From a virus, in the IMG/VR virus record IMGVR_UViG_3300036768_001501, positions 27,514-91,513 of that record: DNA of 64,000 nt; one strand, 5' to 3'. How positions within the stretch are numbered: the stretch's first letter is position 1; each line of letters starts with the position of its first letter. Made by a program: the position numbers and the translations under genes. Positions 13,631-63,790 of this stretch are shown here, piece after piece. A model generated the notes under the pieces. That model was given only the letters and a program-made list of their open reading frames with translations, did no database searches and was not told the DNA's origin.

Positions 13631-16600
13631 ATGAAAACGATTCGTGCAGGCAGTGCTGGGTCAACAGAGATTATTGTTGTAACGAACGAGCTTGAGCCGT
13701 CGTCTATTTCTTTCGGCTCAAACCAGTCCGGCGACGGACTGCGCGTGATGCGCGTTCGTGGATCAAGCACGAATCTCGGGCGGTCGTGGCTAAGGGCGTA
13801 CGGCAAGTTGTCCGGCATGAACATTACGCCGCAGTCGGTCACCATCGATGTTTCTGGTAGCTCATCTGTTGTTCAATCAGGAAAGATTCCGACAATCGAT
13901 ACTATTATCAAAATGGTTAACCTTATCATGCAGGGCGATGATACATTTACAATTTCAGATGTTATAAAGCTGGTTAATGCCGCCCTAACTGATACGCCAA
14001 TGGATATGATGCACGGCGATACTGACAATATGCAGTCCCAGTTGGCATATCCTGTCTGGTACGCTGTGCGCGGCGGTACGCGCTATGGTGTTAGCCGTAG
14101 CTTTGCTGATCCATCTTTTGTTGGTCTGAATGACTTTTTCCCCAGCTCGGTGACGGCCCGCCAGCCTGGGTGCATTAATGATGTAAACGGCGGAAACAAA
14201 TGGACTATTAAATGCTTGGATATGATTCGCTGGAACGATCATATTTTCGTTGCTGTTGGGGCGGTGTACGGGCCATCGTCTGGCGGCAATAGCAACGATA
14301 CATGCGCCGTGATGGTTTATGATGTTGACATTAAGCGTGGTTCACCTATGGCATTGATTGGTGGTGTGTATGATGTATATCGGTACTTGTTCCCATCAAA
14401 TTATTCCCGCTCTGGGACAAGGACAGCATCTCTGATTGATGTTTCATTGGCTGTAGTTGATGGCGTCATCTATGTTGGTGTGCTTGGTCAGCTACAGCAG
14501 GGTACAAATGATGAGAGATTTGCAAATATCTTTTCATTGCCAGTCGCTCTGTATCCTGTGCTGTGTAAGTCCAGCCAATTTCAGGTTGGGTCTGATGGTG
14601 TTATTACATTTACGGTTGATGTTCCGATTTTCAAGAATGTAATTAGTGGAGACGAGGTATGTATTACTCGCGGTGCTTTGTCATCTTACCAGAGCGCAAC
14701 TGGTGTGTTTGTTGTCCAGAGTCGTCTTTCTGATTATAGTGTTACGCTTGTAGCAAAGGATAAGAGCGGCACATTTTTTGGCGGTAGTAGCGCTACGCCA
14801 AGGGAGACACTTACCAGCGCAAATAGCTCTAGTTTTTCATGTTATGTTGCAATTTCTAAGATGTTGAATCCGTCCAGGCCGCGTGGCCATGCTAGGCGGT
14901 CCGAGCTCTTCGCCGGCTGCCCGAATGTTATTGATATTGCTGACAACCAGTCTGGCGGTTTGATTATAGCTCATGATTCAAGAGAGACGTTTAATATTTT
15001 TGGATACTCTAATACGCGCACTTACACTTATGTCTTGCAGGCCAATGATCATGACAGCATTGGCAGAAAGATTCGCTTTGTATTGCCGCCGACGTATTCT
15101 GGCGTTGAGGATATAAGTGGACTTGGGAAAGCCATTTACCTCAAGAAGATTTCCGGTCTTTCGCTTCCTGGAGTACTGCCAGGGTCGTCCATTCGTATCT
15201 TGAGCGGTATTAGCAATGCCCCAAAGACATTTATGATTCAATCGCGCTATCAGTACGGGGATAGTGCGAATGAGAACAAGAGCTATTATGTCATCGGAAA
15301 TACTAGCGACTTGGACGCAACGTCAAACGCAGTCTTTAGCCAATATGTCGAAGTTGAGGTTGAGGTTCCGGTAGCTAATGCTCTATCTGGACATGTTGCG
15401 GCAAACATTGATTTGAAAAACGGCGAAACAATTACAGCTATGCATGTTCCGTTTACGTGGAGTGCATATCCGATCAAGTCTGAGAAAGTAATTTATGTTG
15501 GTACAAATATGGGTCGTATTTTCCGTACGATTGATGGCGGGGCGTCGTGGGATGAAATATATTCACCGCTTTATGGGCAGAATAACCGCGCGGGGAAGAA
15601 TTTCCCTGTTTTGTCAATCTTTTGTTTTCATATGGATGATCCGCGCGATATTACATTTTCGTCTATTCAGCGTGTTGGTGCTGCCGGATCAAGGCAGTAT
15701 AAACTTAGCGTGTCTGGCACAGGGAAAATATATTGGTGGCCGTACCAAGCGTTTGAGCTGCGGATTGGGTCTGCTCGGTTAGTTTGTGTGCGCTCCGAGC
15801 TGATAAAGGGGAAGAGCGGAACATTTCAAATTTCTAATGGTTCGCAGGAATTTGATTTTATTGTTAGCAATGAGTCGGATACTACTGTTCTTGATGGTTA
15901 CGTTGGTCAGACAAATAAAACATTTACATTTGTTCCTTTGCCAGATGTAATTGCTACCAGCAGAAACGGCATTGTTGTGCGGGCGCATCACTATGACCTG
16001 AAGAATGGTTTTATGGTTCTTTCTGCGCCTGCGCAAAGCGGCAGTAATCCTGCCGTTCCGGCTGATTTTAATGTTGAAGATAAGGACCCTGATTATGGCC
16101 AAAAAGTAATGCTTGATACATCAGTTGATTTGATTGATCAGTCTTGGGACGTTCTCGGGCCGATTGGTAGCGGGAATGCCCCGATGACCAACAATGGCGG
16201 TGTTTACAATTCAACGCAAATTGCCGGCTGTATCGTCGAGTCCGGTGGAACAGTCCGTTATGTTACCGGTGGATCAACTCATGTTAGTTGGCCTAGGTTG
16301 AATTTTACGAATAGCAACAATGAGCCTATTTCTAGCGTTTCTGTTTGCCGTGCAGTGTATGGTAGTTCTGACTCTAGCAATAAAGTTATGATAATATTTG
16401 GTGGCGGTGGAAAGTTTTCTGGCTATGTCGGGACCAATCAAACTACAATCAATGTTTCATGGAATTATGTCGGAATTGGTGCCATTGGCAGCACGGTGTC
16501 AGTTAAAGATACAGTTGCGACAAACAATGTGAATCTCTCATCGGCTGTATCTGAGACTGTTCCTGGATTGAATGCTGGCTCTACCATTACTGCCACAGGC

Positions 16601-18718
16601 GGACTTTATATTGCTGAAGTGAATGAGAATTCAACGAATGTTCAGTACGGTATGGCGTTCTTTATGGCCGACTCACAAGGCAATGTTTATGCCTGCTCCC
16701 CTATGGTTAGCAACTTTGAGGCGCAGGCCCTGAAGTTCAATTACGTGACCAGTGTGCCCGGATCAATCAATGCAATTGATGTCTCTTTTGATGATGCGAA
16801 CGGTACGTTAAAGACGAATCTGTTTCTCGCCGGAGTTGCGCGCGACGGTACGCCTACAGTATGGTTGCTGACCTGGACCGGAAATGACCCAATAAATGCT
16901 TGGCCTTATGCAGTAAGACAGATTGATAATAATAACATAAAGGAGGCCGCTCGTTCTCCAAAAGATGTGATCCAGGCAGCATTGCCGGATGTACCAAAGG
17001 AGATCGTTGCGTCACCTCGTATATTAGTTGCAGGCCAGAATCATCTTATGATTGCGCGGCAGGGGATTTTTTCTGGAGTTCAACTATCAAAGCCATGCCT
17101 ACTGAGCTTGTCTGGTGGCTCTCTTTTGTTGGCCGTTGTGAATGAAACAGGCAGGGCAATTGATATTTACTCCGCGAGTGCTCCTGGGCTTGTATTTTCA
17201 TTGATCAGTTCATATAAGCCGTCAAAGACTTCATTCGCATCTTGGGCTGATGCGCCAAGGCCGCGCTTAATGGAGACTGAGTTTGGCGAGATTATCTTGT
17301 TCTTTGATAATGATATTCGCGTCAGCGTTGACGGCGGGCGGAGCTGGCATACTGGTTTGTCGGACAAGATTCCGCTGCCTGTCAGCTTTAGTAAACCGAG
17401 CGATCAGCACGCAACTGATCCTGCAGCAGTGCTTGCGCCGGTCTTTGGTACCGTTGGATATTTATACAAGAAGAATACAAGTACCGATGCTGCTTTTAGG
17501 TTTGCCAGATCAATGACCGACAGTGCTGCAGATGCGGTTGGTTGTCCGGCTATTCCGAACAAGGAGCTGCTGGTCGGGCTTAAAAATCTAGTGATCAGTT
17601 TCTCCGGTGAGCCACAGGGAGGCGATAGGTTCTCCATTGACCTGGACTATGCAAATGGCGCAAGCCTTCTCGGTGCCAAGTCTCCGTCTGTGGCATTGGA
17701 GGTTGATATTTCTAGTTCCGATGCGGAGCTCGTATGGGACAGAATGTCTCAAAAGTATGATAGCAACAGAAAAATATGGAATGTTGATGCCATTGGTCTG
17801 TTTGGGATTAACTTTTCAAAGGCGGAGATTAAATTAAGCAAAGCAAGTGACTTGGGCAGTAACCCGACTTTTTATTCTGCTACACTGCACTCGTTTGTTA
17901 TGCCGGACGGGTCTTTCGCCGATGGATATTCAGATGGCTACTCAATTAGTGGATGTAAGGCTTTTGCGGACATGATCTATGTGCCTAGCGCTACGCTTAA
18001 TCATGGCGTATTTCGGCCTGGGAGAAGGCAATACTATGTGGTTGTAATTACCAGCGGACCTAATTCTCAAACTTATGTAGCAAAGATTCTAGATAACACA
18101 AAGAATACCCTTGTTGTTGAGTACGGCAGTAATCCTAATTTTAGTAGCGCTACTAATGTTCAGATCAAGATTTTTTCTGACAGGATGTTTTCTGTTCTGA
18201 AAAATGTCGAAGGTCATGATTACACGAAGGATGTTGATGGAGATTATCCTTATCGGTACTGCCGGTTTGTGAGGGTTAGGGTTCCCAGCGTCGCAACATC
18301 TGGCCAATATGTTTATGGCTCAAAAGCGCGCATTGGTGTCGTTGCCCACGGTGTTGCAACGCCGTACGGCAATCTAACGTACCGAGGTGAATCTAAACAT
18401 AAATTCTCGCGTGGCTTCAGTTACCGCGAGCGCCACTTCCGCACTGTCCGTGAAACGGAGACAGGGCAGGTGAGTGTTGTTGAGCTCAGCTCCAAGCCGC
18501 GCCTTGAGCTGACGCTGGAGTATGACGACGCGCTCTGGGAAGACCGTGATATGACAATGGCCTCCATGCTGCCTGCGCTTAAGAAGCCCGTGATCCTTGT
18601 GCTGGACTCCAATGATCCGCAATCAGCCGAGTGGATGGAGCTCGCAGAAGAGCCGGTTGTTAAAAATACATTTGCCGACCGGTACACATGGGAAGTCACT
18701 TGGCGTGAGGTCGTATAG
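13631..18718 (+). CDS. Large tail-tip/distal tail protein with Asp-box (BNR) motifs
   Basis: Follows the tape measure; beta-rich; Asp-box-like RTIDGGASW and VSVDGGRSW; Dit-like C-terminus. Confidence 0.6.
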   Translation: MKTIRAGSAGSTEIIVVTNELEPSSISFGSNQSGDGLRVMRVRGSSTNLGRSWLRAYGKLSGMNITPQSVTIDVSGSSSVVQSGKIPTIDTIIKMVNLIMQGDDTFTISDVIKLVNAALTDTPMDMMHGDTDNMQSQLAYPVWYAVRGGTRYGVSRSFADPSFVGLNDFFPSSVTARQPGCINDVNGGNKWTIKCLDMIRWNDHIFVAVGAVYGPSSGGNSNDTCAVMVYDVDIKRGSPMALIGGVYDVYRYLFPSNYSRSGTRTASLIDVSLAVVDGVIYVGVLGQLQQGTNDERFANIFSLPVALYPVLCKSSQFQVGSDGVITFTVDVPIFKNVISGDEVCITRGALSSYQSATGVFVVQSRLSDYSVTLVAKDKSGTFFGGSSATPRETLTSANSSSFSCYVAISKMLNPSRPRGHARRSELFAGCPNVIDIADNQSGGLIIAHDSRETFNIFGYSNTRTYTYVLQANDHDSIGRKIRFVLPPTYSGVEDISGLGKAIYLKKISGLSLPGVLPGSSIRILSGISNAPKTFMIQSRYQYGDSANENKSYYVIGNTSDLDATSNAVFSQYVEVEVEVPVANALSGHVAANIDLKNGETITAMHVPFTWSAYPIKSEKVIYVGTNMGRIFRTIDGGASWDEIYSPLYGQNNRAGKNFPVLSIFCFHMDDPRDITFSSIQRVGAAGSRQYKLSVSGTGKIYWWPYQAFELRIGSARLVCVRSELIKGKSGTFQISNGSQEFDFIVSNESDTTVLDGYVGQTNKTFTFVPLPDVIATSRNGIVVRAHHYDLKNGFMVLSAPAQSGSNPAVPADFNVEDKDPDYGQKVMLDTSVDLIDQSWDVLGPIGSGNAPMTNNGGVYNSTQIAGCIVESGGTVRYVTGGSTHVSWPRLNFTNSNNEPISSVSVCRAVYGSSDSSNKVMIIFGGGGKFSGYVGTNQTTINVSWNYVGIGAIGSTVSVKDTVATNNVNLSSAVSETVPGLNAGSTITATGGLYIAEVNENSTNVQYGMAFFMADSQGNVYACSPMVSNFEAQALKFNYVTSVPGSINAIDVSFDDANGTLKTNLFLAGVARDGTPTVWLLTWTGNDPINAWPYAVRQIDNNNIKEAARSPKDVIQAALPDVPKEIVASPRILVAGQNHLMIARQGIFSGVQLSKPCLLSLSGGSLLLAVVNETGRAIDIYSASAPGLVFSLISSYKPSKTSFASWADAPRPRLMETEFGEIILFFDNDIRVSVDGGRSWHTGLSDKIPLPVSFSKPSDQHATDPAAVLAPVFGTVGYLYKKNTSTDAAFRFARSMTDSAADAVGCPAIPNKELLVGLKNLVISFSGEPQGGDRFSIDLDYANGASLLGAKSPSVALEVDISSSDAELVWDRMSQKYDSNRKIWNVDAIGLFGINFSKAEIKLSKASDLGSNPTFYSATLHSFVMPDGSFADGYSDGYSISGCKAFADMIYVPSATLNHGVFRPGRRQYYVVVITSGPNSQTYVAKILDNTKNTLVVEYGSNPNFSSATNVQIKIFSDRMFSVLKNVEGHDYTKDVDGDYPYRYCRFVRVRVPSVATSGQYVYGSKARIGVVAHGVATPYGNLTYRGESKHKFSRGFSYRERHFRTVRETETGQVSVVELSSKPRLELTLEYDDALWEDRDMTMASMLPALKKPVILVLDSNDPQSAEWMELAEEPVVKNTFADRYTWEVTWREVV

Positions 18719-20623: not shown

Positions 20624-20932
20624 ATGGCACCCGAAACCCGCGACGCAATTGCTATCGCAATTATCTGGTTGCTGATGCAGCTTCTTAAGGTTGCCAAGCG
20701 AAAGTTTGGGGATCGTGTGCCTGTCCTGAAGGGCATTGATGAGGATCAGCTTAAGAAGTTAATTCCTATTCTCTCCCTACTTTTGGCTGGTGGTGGGTAC
20801 GCGGCTGGCGCACTAGACGACCCACAGAGTGCAGTGGCTGTTGGTGGTTTGGCTGTAGCGGCCAACGAGGTTGGCAAGGCGACGGGTCGTCTAGTGCGCT
20901 CTATTGCTGGGAAGCCAAATGACCAACAATGA
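20624..20932 (+). CDS. Putative holin
   Basis: 102 aa with 2-3 hydrophobic segments, SD GAGGT, overlapping the endolysin start. Confidence 0.65.
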   Translation: MAPETRDAIAIAIIWLLMQLLKVAKRKFGDRVPVLKGIDEDQLKKLIPILSLLLAGGGYAAGALDDPQSAVAVGGLAVAANEVGKATGRLVRSIAGKPNDQQ

Positions 20933-39499: not shown

Positions 39500-39611
39500 A
39501 GCATTACCTCCATTGGGGTTGTTAATCTATACGCCCGGCCTTGGTTGCAAGAAAGAAGAGGCAGAAGCGCTTTGTTTTTTGTTAGCCACAACACAAAGGC
39601 CGGGCGTATCT

Positions 39612-42581: not shown

Positions 42582-42944
42582 TTATACAAGGCTCATTTCA
42601 GCGCGCTTCAGCGCTAGCTTTGATCTTAACATATCAATATAAGTTCGCAAGCTCTCGTATCTAACTCTTGCAACGTTTGCTTTCTTTGCCGCTGCGTTCA
42701 TGCCTGTAATATGCTCGATGTACTCCGGCGAAGCCAATGCTTCTGCCTCGCGCTGGGCATCGGACTTGGCGGAGCTTTGCTGCTTGAGTCGTGCAACAAG
42801 CACTTTCTTGGTCTCATACAAAAGCTCATACGCAGCTTGCGCTTCGGCCCATTCAAGTCCGGCATCAAGCAGCTCTTTATATAGCTTTTGTGGGTCAAAG
42901 TCTGTTTCATTGATTTCTGCTTTTGCCTCTTCAATCCAGCTCAT
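42582..42944 (-). CDS. Helical phage protein, UvsY-like recombination mediator
   Basis: All-helical, 120 aa, EAEALASPEY...RS..A..RAEM; lies between helicase and nuclease. Confidence 0.5.
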   Translation of the reverse strand: MSWIEEAKAEINETDFDPQKLYKELLDAGLEWAEAQAAYELLYETKKVLVARLKQQSSAKSDAQREAEALASPEYIEHITGMNAAAKKANVARVRYESLRTYIDMLRSKLALKRAEMSLV

Positions 42945-44800
42945 AAAAGGGTTGCCTCCCCGCTAACAAAATCTTGCAAGATAGCACGCACTTCGGACTG
43001 CTGATCAACCCCGTCGAAACTGAATGACGCCTCTGTATCTCCGGTTGCCTTGGACAAATCAGATGCGCGATCGATTACCCGCCGCGCAATGCGTTCGTCA
43101 ATCGTATCAGCAGCGACAATATACTGGCACAGCACGTTCTTCTTTTGGCCAATACGGTACAGCCGGTCTTCGGCCTGAACGATGGTCGATGGTAGCCAGT
43201 CCATTTCTAGAAAGAGCGCAACTTGCGCTTCTGGAATGTCGATCCCGACACCGCACGACGACATCGTTAGGACAATCATATGAGGTTGATCCGGGTCCGC
43301 GATGATAGAATCACGGAACTGCTGGATTACTTGTAAGCGAGCTTTATGATCCAGCTCTCCATGCACAACGGGGCAGCGGTACAGCTTCCCGACGTATTCG
43401 GCTACGGCCCGATGGTAGCAGAAGGCAACAATCTGTCCGCAATTGTCTGAAATATCTTGTACGTAATCTTTAATTGCCTCTGCTTTCATCATGGCAGTCT
43501 TGCGTCGCGCTTCAGCCAATTCTGCCATGCGCGATGCAAACTGCTTACGCGCTGCTGCGTCCTTGGCAATAATCGCCTGGTATGCCTGTTTTGCTAGACG
43601 CTTTTCCAGCTCCGCCTGGGCAATAAGCTGCTCGGATTTCGGCAGCACAACAATTTCACGCATCTTTTCCGGCAGCTCGTTCAGCACGTCCTGCTTGCTG
43701 CGGCGAATCATGATATGCATGCGTAGGCGGTTGGCCAGCTCTGTAAGTAGCTCATCTTTCTCGCGCTTGCTCATTTCGCGCTCTTCGTACGCCATGCGCT
43801 GGCCATAGCGTGTGTACACTACGCCAAGCTGCATGCCACAGTAGCGCTGAACGATCTCGCTCCTGCGGAATTCCTGCGGGGCCAGCGCATTTGCAAGATT
43901 GCAAATATCTACAACGGCAGCAGTTCCAGGTGTGCCGGTCATCATGAGTATAGACCGATAGTTAATCTTCGGCGGGACGAACTTTTTGCCTTTATAAAAA
44001 CCAAGAATCACCTTGGTCCTTTGCGCCGACGGATTCTTAACATAATGGGCCTCGTCAAGAACAATTAGGTCGAAGTTAATGTTCTTGAATGCATCCTGCA
44101 GCTTGGTCACCAATTCGTAATTCATAATCATCACGAATTGGGTGATATAGCCACGGTTCATGGCGGTCAGAAACTCAAGCTGTCGCCTCTTGGTCATTGT
44201 GGCGTTGCTCACAGGGATAATGCGCATATCCCTACGCGACAGCCATTCGTTCAACTTGTCTGCGAACTTAGTTACCATGATCGAGGGGCAAACAATCAAT
44301 ACCCGCTCGATCTCTGGCAAGCTGTCGATAACGCCAATTGCCTGGATTGTTTTGCCGACACCCATATCATCGGCGAGAAGCACGCCACGCTTGACTTTCT
44401 CTTCGCCCGACAAAATACGTCGAATCTCTGTGGCGATGCTTGAAATGGATCTTTTTTGAAAGCTCATATATTCGCCGCCACGTGGGGTAGGCACAATGAC
44501 GCCGTCATGCAGGTGCACATACTCCAATGGTGTGGCGAAACTGGCAGAGAACAGGTCCATAGCTTTCTTTACAGGCAGCAGATGCTCTGGATGCAGATGC
44601 ATCGCGCGCATAATTTCCATGGCCTCTGTAACTAGATATGTAGACCCCAGATGACCGGAATGCTCCAGCCGAAGCTGAACCTTCCCTGATTCAATCAGCT
44701 TGCGCGCAGGCGAGCGCAAGATATACGGCATGAAGAAGGTCCAACGACCGTCTCTATATTGAATGGACCGTTCTGCTGATGCGCATTGATAGCATGTCAT
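42941..44800 (-). CDS. SNF2-family (HARP-like) helicase
   Basis: LADDMGVGKT, DEAH, MTGTP, MIRRSK and QAEDRLYRIGQ motifs. Confidence 0.93.
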   Translation of the reverse strand: MTCYQCASAERSIQYRDGRWTFFMPYILRSPARKLIESGKVQLRLEHSGHLGSTYLVTEAMEIMRAMHLHPEHLLPVKKAMDLFSASFATPLEYVHLHDGVIVPTPRGGEYMSFQKRSISSIATEIRRILSGEEKVKRGVLLADDMGVGKTIQAIGVIDSLPEIERVLIVCPSIMVTKFADKLNEWLSRRDMRIIPVSNATMTKRRQLEFLTAMNRGYITQFVMIMNYELVTKLQDAFKNINFDLIVLDEAHYVKNPSAQRTKVILGFYKGKKFVPPKINYRSILMMTGTPGTAAVVDICNLANALAPQEFRRSEIVQRYCGMQLGVVYTRYGQRMAYEEREMSKREKDELLTELANRLRMHIMIRRSKQDVLNELPEKMREIVVLPKSEQLIAQAELEKRLAKQAYQAIIAKDAAARKQFASRMAELAEARRKTAMMKAEAIKDYVQDISDNCGQIVAFCYHRAVAEYVGKLYRCPVVHGELDHKARLQVIQQFRDSIIADPDQPHMIVLTMSSCGVGIDIPEAQVALFLEMDWLPSTIVQAEDRLYRIGQKKNVLCQYIVAADTIDERIARRVIDRASDLSKATGDTEASFSFDGVDQQSEVRAILQDFVSGEATLL

Positions 44801-47735: not shown

Positions 47736-48008
47736 ATGAAGAAGCTATCTAGTTATATTAGATTATCCGACATCATTACAAATCAGGAAGAAGCCAACAT
47801 GGTCCTTCGCGGAGTCCGGCTGAATAAGCTATGGATATATGACGTTACCGGTAGGCGGGTTGACTATGTCGAGGCTCGGGCTAGGCTTGGCAATGATCCG
47901 AATCTTATTGTTCCAGGGGCGTCTTTGCGCGGATTTCGGGTCAAGAAAACCAAAATTAAGTATAAAAGCCCGAAATCCAGGGGCAGTATACGCGGCAGGA
48001 CTGGATAA
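47736..48008 (+). CDS. Small basic hypothetical protein
   Basis: 90-aa ORF divergent from 47697; its 3' end overlaps the first 41-bp repeat. Confidence 0.45.
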   Translation: MKKLSSYIRLSDIITNQEEANMVLRGVRLNKLWIYDVTGRRVDYVEARARLGNDPNLIVPGASLRGFRVKKTKIKYKSPKSRGSIRGRTG

Positions 48009-48079
48009 CCTTGAAATATTGTGGCAGTATACGCGCCAAGGCAAAGGGGCAGCGAAATTCCAGAGCAGTATACGCGGCA
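47971..48079 (+). repeat. Three direct repeats, core GCAGTATACGCG, exact 41-bp period (iteron/operator-like)
   Basis: Cores start at 47983, 48024 and 48065; each is preceded by GAAAT. Confidence 0.85.
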
Positions 48080-48161
48080 AGAAATATGATCTAAGAAGAT
48101 AGGCAGAGACCTGGATGCTTAGATATTATACCCCGGGCAACTTGACAGTGTGCTTTTGTAA

Positions 48162-48205
48162 AATGTCGGTCTTTTCGTCCACGATCAGAAAATTCCAGCT
48201 ATGCT
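48162..48205 (+). promoter_or_regulatory. Putative promoter/operator of the RT operon
   Basis: AATGTCGGTCTTTTCG (48162-48177) is identical to 54610-54625, followed by AAAATTC and a -10-like TATGCT (48200-48205). Confidence 0.55.
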
Positions 48206-48211
48206 TTGGTT

Positions 48212-48615
48212 CGCCTTGGCTTTGGTGCCAGAGCCAGCCAAGCGGCGTACGACAAATTGCGCAATTTTGCCGTACGCATGCGCGATAGCGGCGGTATTGT
48301 TACGCGCGATGTACTCGTCGCGGCAACCTGTATGACGTCGGGGGCAGGACCGACTTGCCCCCTCGCGCTACCGTGTACATAACAACATGCTTAGCTGCGG
48401 GTTACACCAGAACCACGCGCGATGTATTCGTCGCGGCAACCTGCGTTCCGTCACCGAGGCGTACTCGCGAAGACTCGGCTCAACTCCGCCACGGCACTTC
48501 GCTTCGCGAAGTGCGCTCCGCTACGTTGGGGCCTCGTCTTCGCTCCGTGCGCTCGCTTCGCGCAGCTAAGCATGCGCGCCCCGGTACGCGGCTAACTGCC
48601 CCGTACCGGGGCAAA
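48212..48615 (+). ncRNA. Structured retron-like ncRNA (msr/msd-like, internally duplicated)
   Basis: Perfect 14-bp inverted repeat 48386-48399 / 48561-48574 encloses two small hairpins and a ~100-nt interrupted hairpin (48455-48555). A 29-bp direct repeat sits at 48302-48330 / 48415-48443. Extra hairpins at 48246-48277, 48341-48361 and 48578-48612. Directly upstream of the RT genes. Confidence 0.75.
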
Positions 48616-48659: not shown

Positions 48660-49697
48660 ATGCGAACAATCAATTTTGGGTACTGGAAAGAGGAAAATGG
48701 CCAGCGCGTGTTCGTTACCACAAGCGAGCATGCGCTTGAAGTGCAACATCAAGTAGCAGAGCGGCTGGCACTGATTGCGTACCTGCTACAGCGCTGCGGG
48801 TGCGGAATCGTAAGCGCCGTTAACTTACCAGAGCTTGGCGTGTCGGCGTACCAGATAGCATCAGAAATTGCCGTACGCGCCTGGCGCCTAAGCAAGAAGG
48901 TGGACAAACAAGACATAGTGGTTGCGCACTACAAGATGCATAACATGTACGACCAGCTCGATCTTGCAAGTGTGTACGCTACGTTAGAATTTACGGCTAA
49001 CTATTGCACGTTTGGCATAGGTATCACGAAAGATTCGCACGTTGTCGCGAAGCCGTTCAGCGACCGCAAACGCATGGAGCCATTGTGCCAGTACGTGGAC
49101 ATGCTGTACGGGATATTACGAAGGATGAATGCCAATGATCGTTGGCATGGCATTGCCTCTCAGGGCAATGAGGCTCAGTACATCATGCCGTACGATCCAC
49201 TGCGCGAGCGTTTTGTCGTTGCCGCTGGACTGCCTACGTCTCCGTACATAGCTGGCTTGTATTTTGCGTACAAAGCTTACAGCAACTTAGCGCAGTTCGC
49301 GAACGACGCTATCAATAAATCTGGAATCTTATACAATGCCGTGCACGTGCCTGGCGTGTCTGTACCAAGGAGACTTGGGTACGCGCAACGCGCATGGACG
49401 TGCGGTGACTATGGCAAAACGTACTGGAGCGAAATTTCGCAGATGCATTTCTTTCACTACGGCCAAGAGGCTGTACTGATTCATACGCGCGATAGCTGCT
49501 ACCTGCCGTTCTTCAAAGACAGTACGCTCAACTATAGGGTTAACGGGTACTTATACGGTGATTCGTTCTCGTTCTACGGAAACGAAATCACCGTAGGCAA
49601 TCCAGAAGTACGTGGCGACAATTCGCCTGTGCCAGCGTCTGCACACGTGGAGAAAGCAAAAACAGTGCTACGTACATTTGCAGTGATGGGAGATTAA
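48660..49697 (+). CDS. Catalytically inactive reverse-transcriptase paralogue (pseudo-RT)
   Basis: Colinear with the next ORF: RVFVTTSEHA/RIFVTTSEYA, YKMHNMYDQL/IDIKDCFNSL, AAGLPTSPYIA/GQGPCTSPHFA, FFHYGQEAVLI/YSRYADDILIT, RVNGY/NVCGF, KAKTVLRT/KAARVLKT. Strong SD AAGGAGG; intact ORF. Confidence 0.8.
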   Translation: MRTINFGYWKEENGQRVFVTTSEHALEVQHQVAERLALIAYLLQRCGCGIVSAVNLPELGVSAYQIASEIAVRAWRLSKKVDKQDIVVAHYKMHNMYDQLDLASVYATLEFTANYCTFGIGITKDSHVVAKPFSDRKRMEPLCQYVDMLYGILRRMNANDRWHGIASQGNEAQYIMPYDPLRERFVVAAGLPTSPYIAGLYFAYKAYSNLAQFANDAINKSGILYNAVHVPGVSVPRRLGYAQRAWTCGDYGKTYWSEISQMHFFHYGQEAVLIHTRDSCYLPFFKDSTLNYRVNGYLYGDSFSFYGNEITVGNPEVRGDNSPVPASAHVEKAKTVLRTFAVMGD

Positions 49698-49698
49698 T

Positions 49699-50796
49699 AT
49701 GCAGGATGTTGGGCACTGGACAACGATTCCCGTCGGTCGCAAGCAGCGCCGCATCTTTGTTACGACATCGGAGTACGCGCGCAAGATACAGCGCGATTTA
49801 GCATGGCGCTTGGCCGCATGGTCGTACTTCTTCAGGCACTGTTCGTGTGGCTTGTTCCGGCCTATCACCGCATATGCGCCAAAAAGCAGCGTACACGATC
49901 ACGTGCGCTTGCATATGGAATGCGCAGCGCGATGGCTCGATGCAGTCACGTACAAGATAGACATAAAGGATTGCTTCAATTCCCTGATGCCTATTGCTTT
50001 CAGGTCGTACGTGCGAGCTGTATACAGAACATTGCTCGGGTACGACTACGGACTTTCTATAAGCCAGGCAAGCGTAGTCGCACTTGGAAGTAGAAGCCTG
50101 TACGGCGGCGACAAGCTGCGTGATGCAATCTGGAGCACAATCATGAACAAGCACCATAGATTCTGGCTCAATTTCGAGTCCATCGTGAACAAGTACGGCG
50201 AGATCGAGAACAGAAAGGTTCAGGCGCTCTTCCCGTACTGCGATGACAAGCGCTTACATGTTGTTGGACAAGGCCCATGTACATCTCCGCACTTTGCTAA
50301 TATAATGCTGCTATCACTCGATTGTACCCTCATGCACAAGATACTTGACCACAAATATTCTGCCGAAGGATCCGTACATGAGATTGGGCTGTTCGGGCAA
50401 TGCGCCCACAAAAAGGCACAATTGCCTTTTGCGTACTCGCGGTACGCAGACGACATTTTAATCACCACGAGTATTGCAACGGACAAGGTGCTTGAAGCTA
50501 TCGAGTTTGCGCTTGCGCTTCACGGCCTGAAAGCCAAGTACGTCGAGCAGTACAAGCAGACAGACCGCATTAACGTCTGCGGGTTTACGTGGACGGTTGG
50601 CGAAGAAGACATCCGCCCGACGCGGCGCGTACGTAGGAGGCTACGCGCGTTGCGTCATATTCATAAAAAGTACAATGACACGAAAGGAGGGCAATTGCAA
50701 TGCTTTGAGCAATGGGCAGATGTGTACAGCGAGTCAAGGCTAGGCAGCTCGAAAGCTGCTCGGGTGCTAAAGACAATTATTGCAGCAAATGCGTAA
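49699..50796 (+). CDS. Retron-type reverse transcriptase
   Basis: Motif A KIDIKDCFNS, motif B QGPCTSPHFAN, motif C YSRYADD. Region-X-like AYAPKSSVHDHVRLH and region-Y-like VCG (cf. VTG). 365 aa with no maturase or nuclease domain. Confidence 0.9.
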   Translation: MQDVGHWTTIPVGRKQRRIFVTTSEYARKIQRDLAWRLAAWSYFFRHCSCGLFRPITAYAPKSSVHDHVRLHMECAARWLDAVTYKIDIKDCFNSLMPIAFRSYVRAVYRTLLGYDYGLSISQASVVALGSRSLYGGDKLRDAIWSTIMNKHHRFWLNFESIVNKYGEIENRKVQALFPYCDDKRLHVVGQGPCTSPHFANIMLLSLDCTLMHKILDHKYSAEGSVHEIGLFGQCAHKKAQLPFAYSRYADDILITTSIATDKVLEAIEFALALHGLKAKYVEQYKQTDRINVCGFTWTVGEEDIRPTRRVRRRLRALRHIHKKYNDTKGGQLQCFEQWADVYSESRLGSSKAARVLKTIIAANA

Positions 50797-50815
50797 GATG
50801 GAGGATACGTACGCT

Positions 50816-51949
50816 ATGCATGACCCAATGAAGGTTCTTCTTGAAGAAGCACGCAGCGGCGCGCGCGTACTGCTCGCTGGCCCACCGGCTACGGGCAAAA
50901 CTGCGCGCATTCGCGCGATTGCGAAAGAACTCGGGTACGAGTTCATTTGTACGCCGCTCCATTTGCAGGAGCGCGTTGACTTAAGCGGCGCAATTGTACC
51001 TGCTGGCGATGTTGCACGACAATTGCCGCTAGAGCTGATTGCGCGCTTGCGCAACGCCAAAAAGCCGGTACTCTGGCTGATCGACGACCTAGGAAAAGCG
51101 CCGATCGATATACAAGGCGCCCTCAAGTCGCTGATCACGCGCGCCGGCGAAGGCATGTCGCTGCCTGAACCCGTACTCGTGTGGGGCGCGACAAACCGAC
51201 CAGAAGATGCGGCTGGCGTACGCGGCCTCGATGAAGCGCTGCGAAGCGAATATGATGCCGCGTACGAAATCCAAGCGCCTATTGCGGTCGTACAAGGCGG
51301 CCAGGTGGTGGACGTTAAAATTCCCGTCCCGACCGAGCGCGGTACCGTGCCACTTGCGCCGTGGGAAGATGAAGTGGAAAACTGGTGCATGTGGGCACTA
51401 GATTATGCACGCCAGCTCGAAACAACCGATCCGCAGCGTGCGTACTGGGCCGCGCAAGTCGTGGCATTCCACCGTGTAACACGCGGCGAATGGTTGTACC
51501 GCTGGCATCACGTGCAGAATCCCGCAGAACGGTTCCCTGATTTCCGCTCGTGGCATGCTGTTATGAAGCTTCCGGAGCCGCTGCAGAAGTACGAGCCGAT
51601 TGCTGCCCGCATTGGCCATCCGGCAACTGCTGCATTCATTTCGGTACGCGAAGACATCACCAGCATGCCAACGCTAGACGAAATTCTCGCATCGCCGCAA
51701 ACAGCGCCTGTTCCAGGCGAAGGAAGTACTGCGGCAATGTACTTGCTCGCAACGCTAATTGCGATTTGGGCATCTCTCGATAACTTGCGTCACTTGATTC
51801 CGTACGTTGAGCGATTGCCGCGACAATTTGCTGCGCTTGCTGCCAAAGGCATCGCGCGCAAGTTTAAGGATAACGTTGACAAGCTTGTTGCGGTCGAACG
51901 ATGGAACAAGTTTGTTGACCGCAACAGCGACCTGTTCGACATCGAGTAG
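50816..51949 (+). CDS. MoxR/dynein-related AAA+ ATPase
   Basis: Walker A GPPATGKT, Walker B WLIDD, sensor GATNR; SD GGAGGA at 50800. Confidence 0.88.
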   Translation: MHDPMKVLLEEARSGARVLLAGPPATGKTARIRAIAKELGYEFICTPLHLQERVDLSGAIVPAGDVARQLPLELIARLRNAKKPVLWLIDDLGKAPIDIQGALKSLITRAGEGMSLPEPVLVWGATNRPEDAAGVRGLDEALRSEYDAAYEIQAPIAVVQGGQVVDVKIPVPTERGTVPLAPWEDEVENWCMWALDYARQLETTDPQRAYWAAQVVAFHRVTRGEWLYRWHHVQNPAERFPDFRSWHAVMKLPEPLQKYEPIAARIGHPATAAFISVREDITSMPTLDEILASPQTAPVPGEGSTAAMYLLATLIAIWASLDNLRHLIPYVERLPRQFAALAAKGIARKFKDNVDKLVAVERWNKFVDRNSDLFDIE

Positions 51950-51977
51950 CGTACAAACCGTTAGGGAGGTTATCTAT

Positions 51978-52727
51978 ATGGCACTAGAAGCAAAAAACTT
52001 CGTACTCGCGCGACCGCACGTTACCGTGTGGAACCCGATGGTCACCGACCACGAGCTAACGCGCGTCATCACGGAAACCACAACGATCCCGAACCAAGAG
52101 CGCGTACGCGCAATGCGCTCGTTGCGACAAATCGATTCGCACAAAAAGCTCATTGCGCTGCGTACGGAAGCCTTCACCAAATTTAACACGCGCACGTGGC
52201 CATGCGAATTCCGTGGGTTCCGCATCGCCAACGTAGTGGTTGTACCAGAATTGCGCGACATCATTGCTGACATACAACCGCGATTCCAAACAGCGCTCGA
52301 TGCGTTCTTGCAGGAGTACGAGGGCGCACGCCGACGTGGCGTCATCTCGCCAATCTGGCCGAGCGCAAACGCAGTACGCGACAAATTCTATTGCGAAGCG
52401 CAATTCTTGCCGATTCCGGCTGATAGGGAATGGCAAACGTGGTTCATGAACATGCGCGCAATGCATCTGGAGTACTTCCGGCAGCGCATTCTAGAGGCGC
52501 TTGATGATGCCGTACGCCGCTTGACGGTCAAAGGCGGCAAGCGCAAGACGGTTGCGCGCGTACTTGCAAGCGCGCTTAAGATGGCGGCGGATATTGAGCT
52601 ACCGCCAGAGCTAAGCAAGCTCGTACAAGAGCTAGATACCGTGGCCGACGCGGCCAAGAGCGCACCAGAACAGCAGCTATCTAAGATTGACATGCTCGCG
52701 GCACGAGTACGTGCAATCGCAGGATAA
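51978..52727 (+). CDS. DUF3150-like protein
   Basis: VTVW...TD, TWP...GFR, F...Y...WPS...VRDKF...LPIP pattern; SD GGAGGT; usual neighbour of phage AAA/vWA genes. Confidence 0.6.
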   Translation: MALEAKNFVLARPHVTVWNPMVTDHELTRVITETTTIPNQERVRAMRSLRQIDSHKKLIALRTEAFTKFNTRTWPCEFRGFRIANVVVVPELRDIIADIQPRFQTALDAFLQEYEGARRRGVISPIWPSANAVRDKFYCEAQFLPIPADREWQTWFMNMRAMHLEYFRQRILEALDDAVRRLTVKGGKRKTVARVLASALKMAADIELPPELSKLVQELDTVADAAKSAPEQQLSKIDMLAARVRAIAG

Positions 52728-52751
52728 CATTCTAACTAGTTAGGGGAAATC

Positions 52752-54476
52752 ATGCGTAAGCCAAACAAGCAAGAGTCGCGCCGCTTAGAGCGCGTTCTCT
52801 TCAAGCTATTATCGCATCCACGTACGGCAGCGATCGTTGGTTCTGTCGCTGGCGAATTACGTACGCGTCCATCCAATAAAGCCGATGGTTCGCGTGCATT
52901 CGAGTACTATGTCGTTGATGTCGGTATGGACAAGTTTATCGCTTCCGCTGACGAGAATTTTCGTATCGTACTCGGCTCGGAGTTCCTCCAGAAGGCTAGC
53001 ATCGAAGAATTGAAGTACGTGCTCGTGCACGAATGCACGCACATTGCAATGGGTCACTTGTGGCGTCTCTGGAAACATGCTCAAATTGATGAGCGCGCCT
53101 TCTTTATCGCAGTTGATTATGAAGTTTACCGGGTACTCAAGCCGCTGCATGACCAAGGTGTGATTCGCGAACCGGACGGAACGTGCGTACCGAAAGCGCT
53201 CGAAACTCCAGATTGGGCCTGGAATTTGTCCGCTGAAGAAATCTGGCGACGCTTACGCAAGCAAGCGCAAACGCCAAGCCCGCTGCAAGTACTTGCGCAT
53301 TCGAGCGGCCAAAGCAGAGACGAAAAGCAAGGCTTTGGCGATCACGAGAATGAAGATTCTGAAGTACCCGTAGACGAAGCGGGCGAGTACGGGCAACACG
53401 ATTGCGATAGCGAGGGCAATGTTTCTAAGGGTGACCCGCGTCGCAATCGTACCAGTACGCCAGGCGGCAGGACGCCAAGCGAACAAGCCAAGAGCGGCAA
53501 AGGCAATAACAACAATGAATGCGACGACGTTGCAAGTACGCCAGGTGGAAAAGACCCACAAAAGCAATCAAACCAAGCCGCAGATGGGTACGGAGATGAT
53601 GGCAACGGCGAAGAAGACGGCGACAATCAAAGTGGCGGCGCGTCCGAAGACTTGCTTGACGAGCTTGCGAAAATTGCACGCAGGCTTGGCCTGCAGCCGT
53701 GTACGTCACAGCAGAGCGCTGAAAATATGCGCCAGTTTGTTGAAGGCGCATTACAGCGCCATGCAATCTTAATCAAGATCGCAGAAGATAAGTCAGGCCA
53801 AGCGCAAGGGCCAAACGGCGGCAACGTACAAGATTTCTTGCAGCTCAATGTACGTGCGCCGGTTCATAACTGGCAAGATGAGCTGCGCGAATTCGTACAG
53901 ACGAACATTATTCGCCGCCCAGACTGGATGCGCCCAGCTAAGCAAACATGGGCAACGGGCGTGTACACGCCACGGCGTCAACGCTACGTACCAGGCACGC
54001 TTGTGATTTGCCGTGATACTTCCGGTTCTATGCAAGTGAAAGAGTTCGATCATATTGCAAGCGAGCTGAAAGATATTTTCGATATAGCTGCATGCGAAAA
54101 CATACAGCTATTGGCAATCGACGGCGACACGCGCGTTACGCAGACATTTATTATCGATAGCGCAAGCGTACTTGAGCAATGGCTGCGTGCACCAAAAGGA
54201 CGTGGCGGCACTGAATACGACCAGTTCATGGAGTACGTAAAGCAATTGCGTAACGGCGACGTTGAAGAATCCGCCATGCTGGAGGGCGATATATGCGGTA
54301 TGATTCTTTGTACCGACTTGGAAGTGTCACAACGCACAATCGATGCGCTTGAACCGCCGGAAGACATTCCGCTGATCTTCATGTACGTCGGTCACCGGAA
54401 AGAAATTCCAGTGGACGTTACGGCAAAAGGCAAGCTCATTAATGTTACTGCAGCGGTACGCGCTAAGAATGCTTAG
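52752..54476 (+). CDS. DUF2201-type metallopeptidase (HExxH) + vWA domain protein
   Basis: LVHECTH, an acidic/Gly-rich linker, MIDAS DTSGS, GRGGT and CTD. Confidence 0.88.
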   Translation: MRKPNKQESRRLERVLFKLLSHPRTAAIVGSVAGELRTRPSNKADGSRAFEYYVVDVGMDKFIASADENFRIVLGSEFLQKASIEELKYVLVHECTHIAMGHLWRLWKHAQIDERAFFIAVDYEVYRVLKPLHDQGVIREPDGTCVPKALETPDWAWNLSAEEIWRRLRKQAQTPSPLQVLAHSSGQSRDEKQGFGDHENEDSEVPVDEAGEYGQHDCDSEGNVSKGDPRRNRTSTPGGRTPSEQAKSGKGNNNNECDDVASTPGGKDPQKQSNQAADGYGDDGNGEEDGDNQSGGASEDLLDELAKIARRLGLQPCTSQQSAENMRQFVEGALQRHAILIKIAEDKSGQAQGPNGGNVQDFLQLNVRAPVHNWQDELREFVQTNIIRRPDWMRPAKQTWATGVYTPRRQRYVPGTLVICRDTSGSMQVKEFDHIASELKDIFDIAACENIQLLAIDGDTRVTQTFIIDSASVLEQWLRAPKGRGGTEYDQFMEYVKQLRNGDVEESAMLEGDICGMILCTDLEVSQRTIDALEPPEDIPLIFMYVGHRKEIPVDVTAKGKLINVTAAVRAKNA

Positions 54477-54478
54477 CG

Positions 54479-54654
54479 CAGTATACATATAAGCCCACGT
54501 ACAGCCGAAACGACAGAACAGTATACATATATTGCGCAGATACGCGTACGGGTACAGGCGCTCCGCGCCTAAAAGTACCCAGGGAGGGCTGGAAATGACG
54601 CGGTGCGTTAATGTCGGTCTTTTCGAGTTTTGACAAAATTCGCGCTGCTACCTT
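54479..54654 (+). promoter_or_regulatory. Regulatory region: two CAGTATACATATA boxes (40 bp apart), the shared 16-mer and a putative extended -10
   Basis: Boxes at 54479-54491 and 54519-54531; AATGTCGGTCTTTTCG at 54610-54625; TGcTACCTT at 54646-54654. Confidence 0.6.
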
Positions 54655-63271: not shown

Positions 63272-63790
63272 GTCCTCTGGCTGCGTACGCGGTACGCGTA
63301 TGGTATCAAACGATCGGGCAGTATATGCGCGCAAATGACGGTGTACGGCGTACTCGGCGCGGGGCGCATATAAGCAACCAGGGTGTCCGGCTTGTGGCTG
63401 GCTGGTGTGTCTATGCTCTGGTTTGCATAGCGTGTTTGCATAGTGCGTTTGCCTAGCGTGTATGGCCTAGCCGGCCTGCGTACTATATGAGCGGATGGCG
63501 TGGGTAGCGTTTCTTTGCGTACACCAAATTCTGGTTACGGGCCACAAAAGTGGGTGTACGCGGTGTGGCAATTATTCATATAGTACGCGCTTTCTGTCCT
63601 AGTGTCACAAAATTGCCACACCATAGTTGCCTTGACACGTGCTTATGTAGCATGGCTGTCAAAAACCCTGTACGCACAGCGCTGATAAGTCGCAAAAGGT
63701 GGTGTACGCACTTTGGGTGCGTGGCAAGAAAATGACGCTGCGTACATGGTTGATGTGTATCATTTTGGTACACACCGTCTGTCCGGCTGC

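What the first reader, a model, noticed from the sequence alone, without database searches (positions are those of the whole stretch)
48386..48574. msr/msd-like cassette whose long hairpin carries ssDNA-specific structural motifs on the cDNA strand
Seen: CATGCTTAGCTGCG (48386-48399) and CGCAGCTAAGCATG (48561-48574) form a perfect inverted repeat, with unpaired Gs right after the left arm (candidate branch G at 48400/48401). Two small hairpins follow (GGTT..AACC; CGCGATG-TATT-CGTCGCG). Then comes a long hairpin: GCGAAGAC 48467-48474 / GTCTTCGC 48536-48543, apex GCACTTCGC-TTC-GCGAAGTGC 48494-48514. On the minus (would-be cDNA) strand there are GCGAAGC (48501-48507, 48555-48561) and GCGGAGC (48515-48521), and the TC/TC bulges become GA/GA. 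Established: GC-GNA-GC mini-hairpins and tandem sheared G-A pairs are unusually stable in DNA. Inference: this segment is selected to fold as single-stranded DNA. Caveat: two G-T pairs on the + strand become A-C mismatches in the cDNA.
Basis: partly seen in the sequence, partly recalled or inferred. Interest (0 to 1): 0.8.

Follow-up and report, generated by a model that had tools for sequence, protein, structure and literature searches.

The report
Phage retron-like template RNA cassette
A hot-spring phage carries a retron-shaped non-coding RNA in front of a very divergent retron-type reverse transcriptase and an inactive copy of that enzyme; this is an unusual variant of a known system, and the idea that its hairpin is tuned for single-stranded DNA is plausible but unproven.

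Summary
These are the perfect 14-bp inverted repeat (48386-48399 / 48561-48574), a G right after the left arm, small hairpins, a ~110-nt hairpin, and GCGAAGC/GCGGAGC words on the minus strand.

Context supports a retron-like msr/msd RNA:
- The cassette lies 86 nt upstream of a same-strand operon.
- Gene 1 is a conserved, catalytically dead paralogue of gene 2.
- Gene 2 is an intact reverse transcriptase whose best matches in PADLOC, NCBIfam, PDB and hhalign are retron RTs. All fall far below family cut-offs, and VTG reads VCG.

DNA of relatives could not be fetched. Logan contigs (~89% identical, hot-spring runs) plus a spurious ORF called across a relative's ncRNA gave partial sequence:
- The arms, the apex and G48400 are kept.
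- One A-U to G-C compensation occurs in the long stem and one in the following hairpin.
- Two other stem pairs become mismatches on the RNA strand but T.G / A.G on the cDNA strand.

Relatives carry four copies of the 29-nt msr hairpin motif against two here.

The "tuned for ssDNA" reading has modest, post hoc support and mixed comparative evidence. I class this as a new variant of a known kind. The scan has noted phage retron-type RTs and tandem retron template arrays on other genomes, but not this element.

The parts
47971..48082 (.). Three direct repeats spaced 41 nt apart (core GCAGTATACGCGGCAAGA) in the divergent intergenic region. They are candidate regulator-binding sites upstream of the ncRNA/RT operon.
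   Evidence: family D1
48162..48177 (+). The 16-mer AATGTCGGTCTTTTCG, found exactly once more in the phage at 54610-54625, ahead of the next plus-strand operon. It is a candidate phage promoter element, which would place the transcript start near 48200.
   Evidence: The promoter role is inferred.
48266..48385 (+). Unit 1, a mini-unit with the same topology as the main cassette. Closing stems are 48272-77/48373-78 and 48280-85/48363-68. An unpaired TAGC follows, then a copy of the msr hairpin (48305-48322), then a short 9-bp hairpin (48340-48362).
   Evidence: D2; MFE -51.7, z = -2.18. Relatives carry more such units.
48386..48399 (+). a1-type 5' arm of the terminal inverted repeat.
   Evidence: I2. 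It reads M-L-S-C-G (ATG CTT AGC TGC GG) in the relative's spurious ORF, so it is conserved at all determinable positions.
48400..48400 (+). Candidate priming (branching) G, the first base after the 5' arm and opposite G48560. The alternative candidate is G48394, in the UAGC word shared by units 1 and 2.
   Evidence: G48400 is kept while G48401 is deleted in all three relatives (table 4). Branching itself was not tested.
48418..48435 (+). msr-type hairpin (7 bp including one U.G, loop TATT) followed by GCAACCTG. It is the only part duplicated in unit 1 (48302-48330), and relatives have four copies. It is the likely RT / pseudo-RT recognition element.
   Evidence: D2; tables 5, 8; only two copies in the 91.5-kb genome. 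Protein binding is inferred.
48449..48560 (+). msd-type long hairpin, the presumed template. The cDNA would be the minus strand. Apex at 48494-48514.
   Evidence: In relatives, pair 48473/48537 goes A-U to G-C and 48480/48530 goes U.G to U-A (assuming 48480, a third-codon position not read in the relative, stays U). Pair 48470/48540 goes A-U to U.C, and 48457/48553 goes A-U to A.C or C.C.
48501..48507 (-). GCGAAGC on the minus strand, exactly at the hairpin apex (a C-GAA-G triloop on the would-be cDNA). Further GCGNAGC words lie at 48515-21 and 48555-61.
   Evidence: Unchanged in relatives. Formation of a mini-hairpin was not tested.
48561..48574 (+). a2-type 3' arm of the terminal inverted repeat.
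Evidence: I2.
48578..48612 (+). An 11-bp GC-rich hairpin without a T run, between the cassette and the first gene. It is either a processing or attenuation signal or the 3' boundary of the ncRNA.
   Evidence: I3. Pair 48583/48607 goes G-C to A-T in the relative, which is compensatory.
48660..49697 (+). Catalytically dead paralogue of the RT (345 aa). At the motif A Asp position it reads His, and YADD reads YGQE. The region-Y Gly and the following A..H are kept.
   Evidence: (BLASTP E = 3e-9 against the RT), and (these substitutions are conserved in homologues of 90% and 68% identity).
49699..50796 (+). Intact reverse transcriptase (365 aa), with IDIKDCF, QGxxTSP, YADD, and VCG where retron RTs have VTG.
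50780..54476 (+). Co-oriented downstream genes: an AAA+ ATPase (50780-51949), a protein of unknown family (51807-52727) and a DUF2201 metallopeptidase/VWA protein (52752-54476). Whether they belong functionally to the RT module is open.

Best explanation
The stretch 48386-48574 is the msr/msd-type non-coding RNA of a phage-borne, highly divergent retron-like system.

Inferred mechanism:
- The RNA is transcribed on the plus strand from a phage promoter near 48160-48200, together with the genes downstream.
- Its 14-bp terminal arms pair and bring G48400 next to the 3' end of the long hairpin.
- The conserved 7-bp hairpin at 48418-48435 recruits the RT (49699-50796).
- The RT copies the long hairpin (about 48560 down to about 48450) into a single-stranded DNA, which is the minus strand and refolds into a purine-looped hairpin capped by a GAA triloop.

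The dead RT paralogue (48660-49697) keeps the RNA-targeting C-terminal region. It probably binds the repeated hairpin of the upstream mini-unit or units, or partners the active RT.

What is shown:
- the RNA topology and its significance;
- that the region is non-coding;
- conservation of the arms, apex and G48400, and partial covariation in relatives;
- the retron kinship of the RT;
- that the paralogue is dead and conserved.

What is inferred: transcription, 2'-OH priming, the extent of the cDNA, which protein binds which hairpin, and what the system does for the phage.
For: - Topology: terminal 14/14 inverted repeat, short hairpins, and a long hairpin, as Mestre et al. 2020 (PMC7736814) define msr-msd transcripts.
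- Fold: z = -4.96.
- Position: 86 nt upstream of, and co-oriented with, the RT operon.
- RT kinship: the best PADLOC hits are all retron RT models (RT_III-A 2.3e-14). The same holds for its only two distant relatives, P0006 and P0003. The best NCBIfam hit is retron_St85_RT. The best PDB hits are retron RTs Ec83, Eco8 and Kva2. hhalign against type XIII retron RTs gives 97.6% probability over RT4 to region Y, with VCG aligned to VTG.
- Non-coding: none of seven maximal ORFs across the region is in the protein collection. Relatives also carry a net -1 indel at 48401-48410.
- Relatives about 89% identical: arms, apex hairpin and G48400 are conserved. Pair 48473/48537 goes A-U to G-C, 48480/48530 goes U.G to U-A (if the unread third-codon base 48480 is unchanged), and a new C48466-G48545 pair appears. 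In the flanking hairpin, 48583/48607 goes G-C to A-T.
- The U.G pair in both copies of the msr hairpin favours the plus strand as the RNA.
Against: - The RT scores far below every curated retron cut-off (45 bits against 235 for NF038233). Pfam RVT_1 is also below threshold.
- VTG is VCG, and NAXXH is not recognisable with confidence.
- Two stem pairs become mismatches on the RNA strand in the relative.
- Hairpin 1 (GGTT/AACC) is not kept in relatives.
- No Rfam family matches. Rfam also misses the ncRNAs of the true type XIII retron loci, so this counts for little.
- A dead RT gene sits between the RNA and the RT, and tandem extra units are present. Neither belongs to the classical picture.
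- No cDNA, no RNA data and no full sequence of any relative were available.
Confidence: 0.6

Rival explanations
1. It is an RT-associated structured RNA but not a retron. It serves as scaffold and/or template for another mode of cDNA synthesis, as in the DRT class 2 systems (protein-primed, repeat-copying or rolling synthesis). The two RT paralogues would work as a pair, as in DRT3.
For: - There are two adjacent RT-fold genes.
- The RT lies outside every curated retron family.
- Weak PADLOC hits to UG26, Drt3a, UG19 and UG29 exist, from 1e-6 to 6e-4.
- DRT2, DRT3, DRT9 and DRT10 all use an ncRNA next to the RT (abstracts).
- The copy number of the hairpin units varies between relatives.
Against: - Retron models beat UG/DRT models by many orders of magnitude for all three family members.
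- The second RT here has lost all three catalytic Asp residues, whereas DRT3 needs both RT activities (abstract of 10.64898/2026.05.04.722794).
- A terminal inverted repeat with an adjacent G and a long hairpin is the retron hallmark.
Confidence: 0.2
2. It is a cis-acting leader RNA of the operon that is never reverse-transcribed. It would act in attenuation, stability or translation control, or as a binding platform that titrates the RT paralogues.
For: - It lies in the 5' untranslated region, with a conserved hairpin just before the first gene that shows a compensatory change.
- The next operon also has a hairpin-rich leader after the same 16-mer.
- The repeated hairpin units look like reiterated protein-binding sites.
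Against: - A perfect 14-bp long-range closure around a 110-nt hairpin is not needed for attenuation.
- The association with a retron-type RT is specific.
- The hairpin motif occurs nowhere else in the 91.5-kb genome.
Confidence: 0.12
3. It is a DNA-level element rather than an RNA gene: a miniature inverted-repeat insertion, or a single-strand initiation or origin-type signal. GCGAAGC mini-hairpins were first noted at phage origins (from memory).
For: - It has terminal inverted repeats.
- Motifs known to be stable in DNA lie on one strand.
- Both strands fold well.
Against: - There is a single copy in the genome.
- No target-site duplication is evident.
- It holds a copy of the hairpin shared with the neighbouring unit, so it is part of the local array and not an insertion.
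- It is tightly linked to the RT genes in all relatives.
Confidence: 0.05

Closest known systems
Classical retrons: msr-msd ncRNA + retron RT + effector (types I-XIII of Mestre et al. 2020, PMC7736814). The nearest cellular RTs found here are type XIII (Mx162-like) retron RTs of Polyangiaceae and Baia soyae (L003, L004).
   Same: - The ncRNA is closed by terminal inverted repeats, with a G beside the 5' arm, short msr hairpins and one long msd hairpin.
- The ncRNA lies just upstream of, and co-oriented with, the RT.
- The RT's region Y aligns with retron RTs.
- The arm length (14 bp) and the spacing to the gene resemble the true type XIII locus L003.
   Different: - The RT is far outside all 13 types: PADLOC gives 2e-14 here against 1e-162 to 1e-179 for L003/L004.
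- VTG is VCG.
- A conserved dead RT paralogue lies between the RNA and the RT.
- There are tandem extra mini-units, 2 here and 4 in relatives.
- It is carried by a 91.5-kb phage, not a bacterial defence island.
- The accessory genes are AAA+/VWA-metallopeptidase rather than known retron effectors.
DRT3 (Drt3a/UG3 + Drt3b/UG8 + ncRNA)
   Same: Two adjacent RT-fold genes plus a structured ncRNA in one operon.
   Different: - Both DRT3 enzymes are active and belong to the UG/Abi lineage.
- Here the second protein has lost the catalytic triad.
- The family scores as retron-like and only marginally as Drt3a (7.5e-5).
Viral retron-like RT clades catalogued from metagenomes (Hlife 2024, PMC13681634: RTC3 and the new RTC5)
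   Same: A retron-related RT encoded by a tailed-phage-like contig.
   Different: - That survey is a catalogue of RT genes. In the passages I read it describes no ncRNA, no dead paralogue and no mechanism.
- Whether this RT falls in RTC3 or RTC5 was not testable here.
d(GCGAAGC) / GNA-triloop DNA mini-hairpins and tandem sheared G.A pairs in the 5'-Y-GA-R-3' context (structural motifs recalled from memory, Hirao and co-workers and others; not checked in a paper here)
   Same: - The would-be cDNA strand has GCGAAGC exactly at the hairpin apex.
- It has a CGAG/CGAG 2x2 loop.
   Different: - Nothing shows that these motifs form or matter here.
- No paper in the library links such motifs to msDNA.

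Membership tests
Retron | ncRNA whose ends are inverted repeats (a1/a2) that pair and enclose the msr and msd structures | tested here: met
   A 14/14 perfect repeat at 48386-99 / 48561-74. It is conserved in relatives. The definition comes from PMC7736814.
Retron | msr part with one to three hairpins and msd part with one long stable stem-loop | tested here: met
   The MFE and centroid folds show hairpins at 48400-14, 48418-35 and 48436-44, and a long hairpin at 48449-48560. One compensatory pair is seen in the long stem. The first small hairpin is not conserved.
Retron | Conserved priming (branching) G next to the 5' arm, joined 2'-5' to the cDNA | not testable with these tools
   A G is present at 48400 and kept in relatives, while G48401 is lost. 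The chemistry of priming needs an experiment.
Retron | RT with region Y carrying the VTG triplet (G most conserved) | tested here: inconclusive
   The hmmsearch and hhalign alignments place V293-C294-G295 on VTG. G295 is invariant in the family, including in the dead paralogue. The Thr is replaced by Cys.
Retron | RT with region X carrying NAXXH between RT2 and RT3 (H most conserved) | tested here: inconclusive
   The active RTs share S-[VI]-x-x-H (H68 invariant) about 20 residues before motif A. hhalign did not align the N-terminal half.
Retron | RT reaches the curated score of a retron RT family model | tested here: not met
   NF038233 scores 45 bits against a cut-off of 235. The best PADLOC hit is 51 bits and partial. 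True type XIII RTs score 540-594 bits.
Retron | ncRNA adjacent to and co-transcribed with the RT gene | tested here: inconclusive
   Adjacency and orientation are met. Co-transcription was not shown, because no RNA run was listed. A dead RT gene lies in between.
Retron | Production of msDNA | not testable with these tools
   Only DNA contigs were available.
DRT3 | Two active RTs of the UG3 and UG8 groups | tested here: not met
   Gene 1 lacks all three catalytic Asp residues and hits no PADLOC model. Gene 2 hits Drt3a only at 7.5e-5, below 19 retron models.
Diversity-generating retroelement | Template/variable repeat pair differing at adenines, next to the RT | tested here: not met
   The only repeat pair (48302-39 / 48415-52) differs at C/T and in non-A-specific positions, and both copies are non-coding.
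Group II intron | Intron RNA domains, and an RT with a maturase domain | tested here: not met
   No Rfam match at E <= 1. TIGR04416 scores 26 bits against a cut-off of 300.

The most novel reading that the evidence does not exclude
A lytic-type hot-spring phage uses its own retron-like machine as a weapon or takeover tool. In this reading:
- an active RT plus a conserved pseudo-RT act on an expandable array of template/decoy RNA units;
- the DNA product has been shaped for DNA-only structural motifs, namely a GAA-triloop cap, tandem G.A pairs and purine-rich loops;
- the selected molecule is therefore the folded ssDNA, for example as a nuclease-resistant decoy or sponge against host defences.
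Probability: 0.2. Interest if true: 0.8.

Novelty: new variant of a known kind. Interest (0 to 1): 0.6.

Why it matters
Retrons are understood as bacterial anti-phage systems and are used as genome-editing tools. This locus differs in several ways:
- The whole retron-shaped module sits in a phage.
- Its RT has only a handful of relatives among 1.8 billion representative proteins.
- A maintained inactive RT paralogue is part of the module.
- The number of RNA units differs between close relatives.

If the module makes DNA, it would widen the known range of retron enzymes and templates. It would also give a case in which a virus, not the host, uses msDNA. The ssDNA-motif idea is cheap to test. 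If it is right, it suggests design rules for more stable editing donors.

Tried and rejected
Searches for DNA of relatives, none successful:
- The search for related loci with the RT, with an alignment of the family, and with P0006 and P0003, in viral, metagenome and genome collections. Only distant type XIII retron RTs came back.
- blastn against the phage collection: no match.

Results that were uninformative:
- Read laying printed only substitutions that the first run also supports, so the 5' half of the long stem was hidden. I recovered part of it from the spurious ORF P0017, but only at first and second codon positions.
- The AlphaFold model of the RT had mean pLDDT 49.8, so no fold search was run.
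- The ESM Atlas says only 'RVT_1-like' for the RT and nothing for the dead paralogue.
- No RNA holder was listed among sequencing runs.
- Rfam gave no hit. It also misses the ncRNAs of true retron loci, so this is uninformative.
- As a control for 'purine-rich cDNA loops' I folded two true retron loci. Two loci are too few, and the L004 boundaries were uncertain, so I draw no conclusion.
- A literature search for GCGAAGC together with msDNA found nothing relevant.

Readings considered and rejected: DGR, group II intron, CRISPR-associated RT and a small protein gene (see the membership tests).

Full report
**Where the window comes from.** The window is the right-hand 64 kb of a 91.5-kb IMG/VR virus record judged about 90% complete. 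Near-identical DNA occurs in microbial-mat runs, and relatives of about 89% identity occur in hot-spring runs from two further studies.

**The observation.**
- The 14-bp arms are perfectly complementary. Only nine inverted repeats in the whole window have arms of 13 nt or more within 300 nt, and this is one of them.
- As RNA, the plus strand of 48380-48580 folds into a closing stem, three small hairpins and a ~110-nt hairpin. The energy is -92.5 kcal/mol, z = -4.96, with 0 of 200 shuffles as good.
- The minus strand folds equally significantly as DNA, z = -4.98.
- Three GCGNAGC words lie on the minus strand against 0.49 expected (P about 0.01). One is exactly the apex, a C-GAA-G loop.
- The CTCG/CTCG internal loop reads CGAG/CGAG on the minus strand.

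**Surroundings.**
- The cassette lies in a 960-nt divergent intergenic region.
- Upstream are three 41-nt-spaced repeats and a 16-mer that recurs exactly once, in front of the next plus-strand operon. I take it for a phage promoter element; this is inference.
- Downstream, after an 11-bp hairpin with no T run, come five co-oriented genes.
- Gene 2 (49699-50796) is an intact reverse transcriptase.
- Gene 1 (48660-49697) had no family hit.
- In gene 1 the motif A Asp is His and YADD is YGQE. Both substitutions are kept in homologues of 90% and 68% identity, while the N- and C-terminal thirds are almost invariant. Gene 1 is therefore a maintained pseudo-enzyme.
- It keeps the Gly that aligns with the G of the retron VTG triplet. 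This lies in the region that, according to PMC7736814, directs a retron RT to its msr.

**What kind of RT.**
- The family is tiny. phmmer against 1.84 billion representatives found one close, partial relative (81%), two distant ones (P0006 at 36%; P0003 at 31% by BLASTP) and only weak hits beyond. A fourth, P0001 at 89%, came from the word-indexed search.
- For the window RT and both distant relatives, the best PADLOC, NCBIfam and PDB matches are retron RTs, ahead of UG/DRT, CRISPR-associated and group II intron models.
- hhalign against two bona fide type XIII retron RTs fetched here gives 97.6% probability from motif B through region Y. VCG falls on VTG, and the following R...L..RAL.H helix is shared.
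- All scores are far below the curated cut-offs. The enzyme is retron-like, not a member of any established retron type.

**Comparative evidence.**
- No relative's DNA could be fetched (see Tried and rejected).
- Laying Logan contigs showed that three hot-spring contigs carry the ncRNA region and both RT genes colinearly at about 89% identity. It also showed that they hold four copies of the 29-nt hairpin motif (48302-48331) where the window has two. The region is thus a tandem array of units of 113-133 nt, with variable copy number.
- That table showed only part of the substitutions. A search with the open frame across the ncRNA then found P0017, a spurious ORF called on the 9,244-nt relative contig. 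Its back-translation, aligned to the window, gives the relative's bases at first and second codon positions.

Combined, the comparison shows:
- The a1 arm is readable as ATG CTT AGC TGC GG, so it is unchanged. The a2 arm is unchanged.
- The apex hairpin and all three GCGNAGC words are unchanged.
- G48401 is deleted and G48400 is kept.
- Pair 48473/48537 changes from A-U to G-C, a compensatory change.
- Pair 48480/48530 changes from U.G to U-A, assuming that 48480, a third-codon position not read in the relative, is still U.
- A new pair, C48466-G48545, appears.
- The G48529-to-A change can be absorbed by shifting the bulge.
- Pair 48470/48540 changes on both sides, to U.C.
- Pair 48457/48553 becomes A.C (or C.C).
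- In the hairpin after the cassette, 48583/48607 changes from G-C to A-T, also compensatory.
- The first small hairpin (GGTT/AACC) shrinks to 2-3 pairs and is probably just a linker.
- Net frame-shifting indels, and the absence of any called ORF in the window's copy, argue that the region is non-coding.
- Overall divergence in the cassette is about 9% of determinable positions, similar to the genes. Conservation of the 7-nt words is therefore not informative in itself.

**The ssDNA-tuning claim.**

Evidence for it:
- The minus strand of the long hairpin is predicted to be more stable than the plus strand under both parameter sets. The core gives -44.1 against -39.0 as RNA, and -23.2 against -20.9 as DNA.
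- 31 of 40 unpaired residues of the long hairpin are pyrimidines on the plus strand (binomial P = 7e-4), against 55-61% in the neighbouring structured parts. The loops of the would-be cDNA are therefore purine-rich.
- The two uncompensated changes in the relative are A.C and U.C on the RNA strand but T.G and A.G on the cDNA strand.

Evidence against it:
- The window's own two G.U pairs are A.C on the cDNA strand.
- The tests were chosen after seeing the data.
- Two or three events cannot establish a direction.

The simplest reading is that both the RNA and its DNA copy have to fold, as in any retron. I give about 0.3 to specific selection for DNA-only motifs.

**Upstream unit.** Unit 1 (48266-48385) folds into the same topology in miniature: closing stems, an unpaired TAGC, the shared hairpin, and a 9-bp hairpin. 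The significance is weak, z = -2.2. The relative's version of the short hairpin has a different sequence that is compatible with a compensated stem, but that depends on undetermined third-codon bases. I count it as compatible, not shown. Two RT paralogues and a reiterated RT-type recognition hairpin suggest one protein per hairpin; this is inference only.

**Comparison with known systems.** It works like a retron and resembles one in RNA architecture and RT kinship. Three departures stand out:
- It fails the score-based membership test.
- It has VCG for VTG.
- It adds a pseudo-RT, a unit array and a phage setting.

It is not DRT3, a DGR or a group II intron (see the membership tests). Viral retron-like RT clades have been catalogued (PMC13681634), and retron-like RTs are annotated in some jumbo phages. 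I found no description of their RNAs or of a dead paralogue. Earlier AI notes of this scan report phage retron-type RTs and tandem retron template arrays in other genomes. I used these as leads only.

**Verdict.** The retron-like reading is supported (0.6). The ssDNA-specific tuning is unproven. This is a new variant of a known kind, with interest 0.6.

Noticed in passing
L008:5400-5560 and L009:5420-5580 (metagenome contigs FWWM01030253.1, FWPU01009989.1): Long CRISPR arrays with the repeat GTCTCAAACCCCTCTCGGGGAACGTGTGCCTTCGGCC and 190 distinct spacers. Two adjacent spacers come from relatives' copies of the ncRNA hairpin unit: 23/23 identity to 48306-48328, and 15 nt to 48303-17. One more spacer matches the phage at genome position 2824-2854 (87%). 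Loose ends of contigs at 48437 and 50358 run into the same repeat. This marks the host lineage's CRISPR system. It also shows that the ncRNA/RT region is a spacer source.
   Followed up: partly
window 47971-48082 and 54479-54531; 48162-48177 and 54610-54625: Two plus-strand operons share regulatory words: CAGTATAC-containing repeats spaced about 41 nt apart, then the exact 16-mer AATGTCGGTCTTTTCG followed by AAAATTC. This is probably a phage-specific promoter/operator set.
   Followed up: partly
window 20808-20899; 39529-39609; 63478-63588: Three other long-range inverted repeats, with arms of 16, 17 and 13 nt and 47-85 nt between them. They may be further structured RNAs or terminators.
   Followed up: no
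window 1904-13627 and 13631-18718: Two giant plus-strand ORFs of 3,907 and 1,695 aa, presumably virion or injected proteins. I did not examine them.
   Followed up: no
window 50780-54476: An AAA+ ATPase (phrog_1297), a protein of unknown family (306 aa) and a DUF2201 metallopeptidase/VWA protein (phrog_1314) directly follow the RT on the same strand. Whether they are retron-type effectors or an independent phage module is open.
   Followed up: partly
L003:3797-4033 (Polyangiaceae MAG contig DAORJJ010000434.1): A textbook type XIII retron ncRNA turned up as a by-product. It has 14-bp terminal arms (TTCACGCGCGGCGG and its complement), msr hairpins and a long, nearly perfect msd hairpin ending 59 nt before the RT gene. 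Rfam has no model for it.
   Followed up: partly
window 42941-44800 (minus strand): An SNF2-family helicase gene lies in the leftward operon that diverges from the ncRNA region.
   Followed up: no
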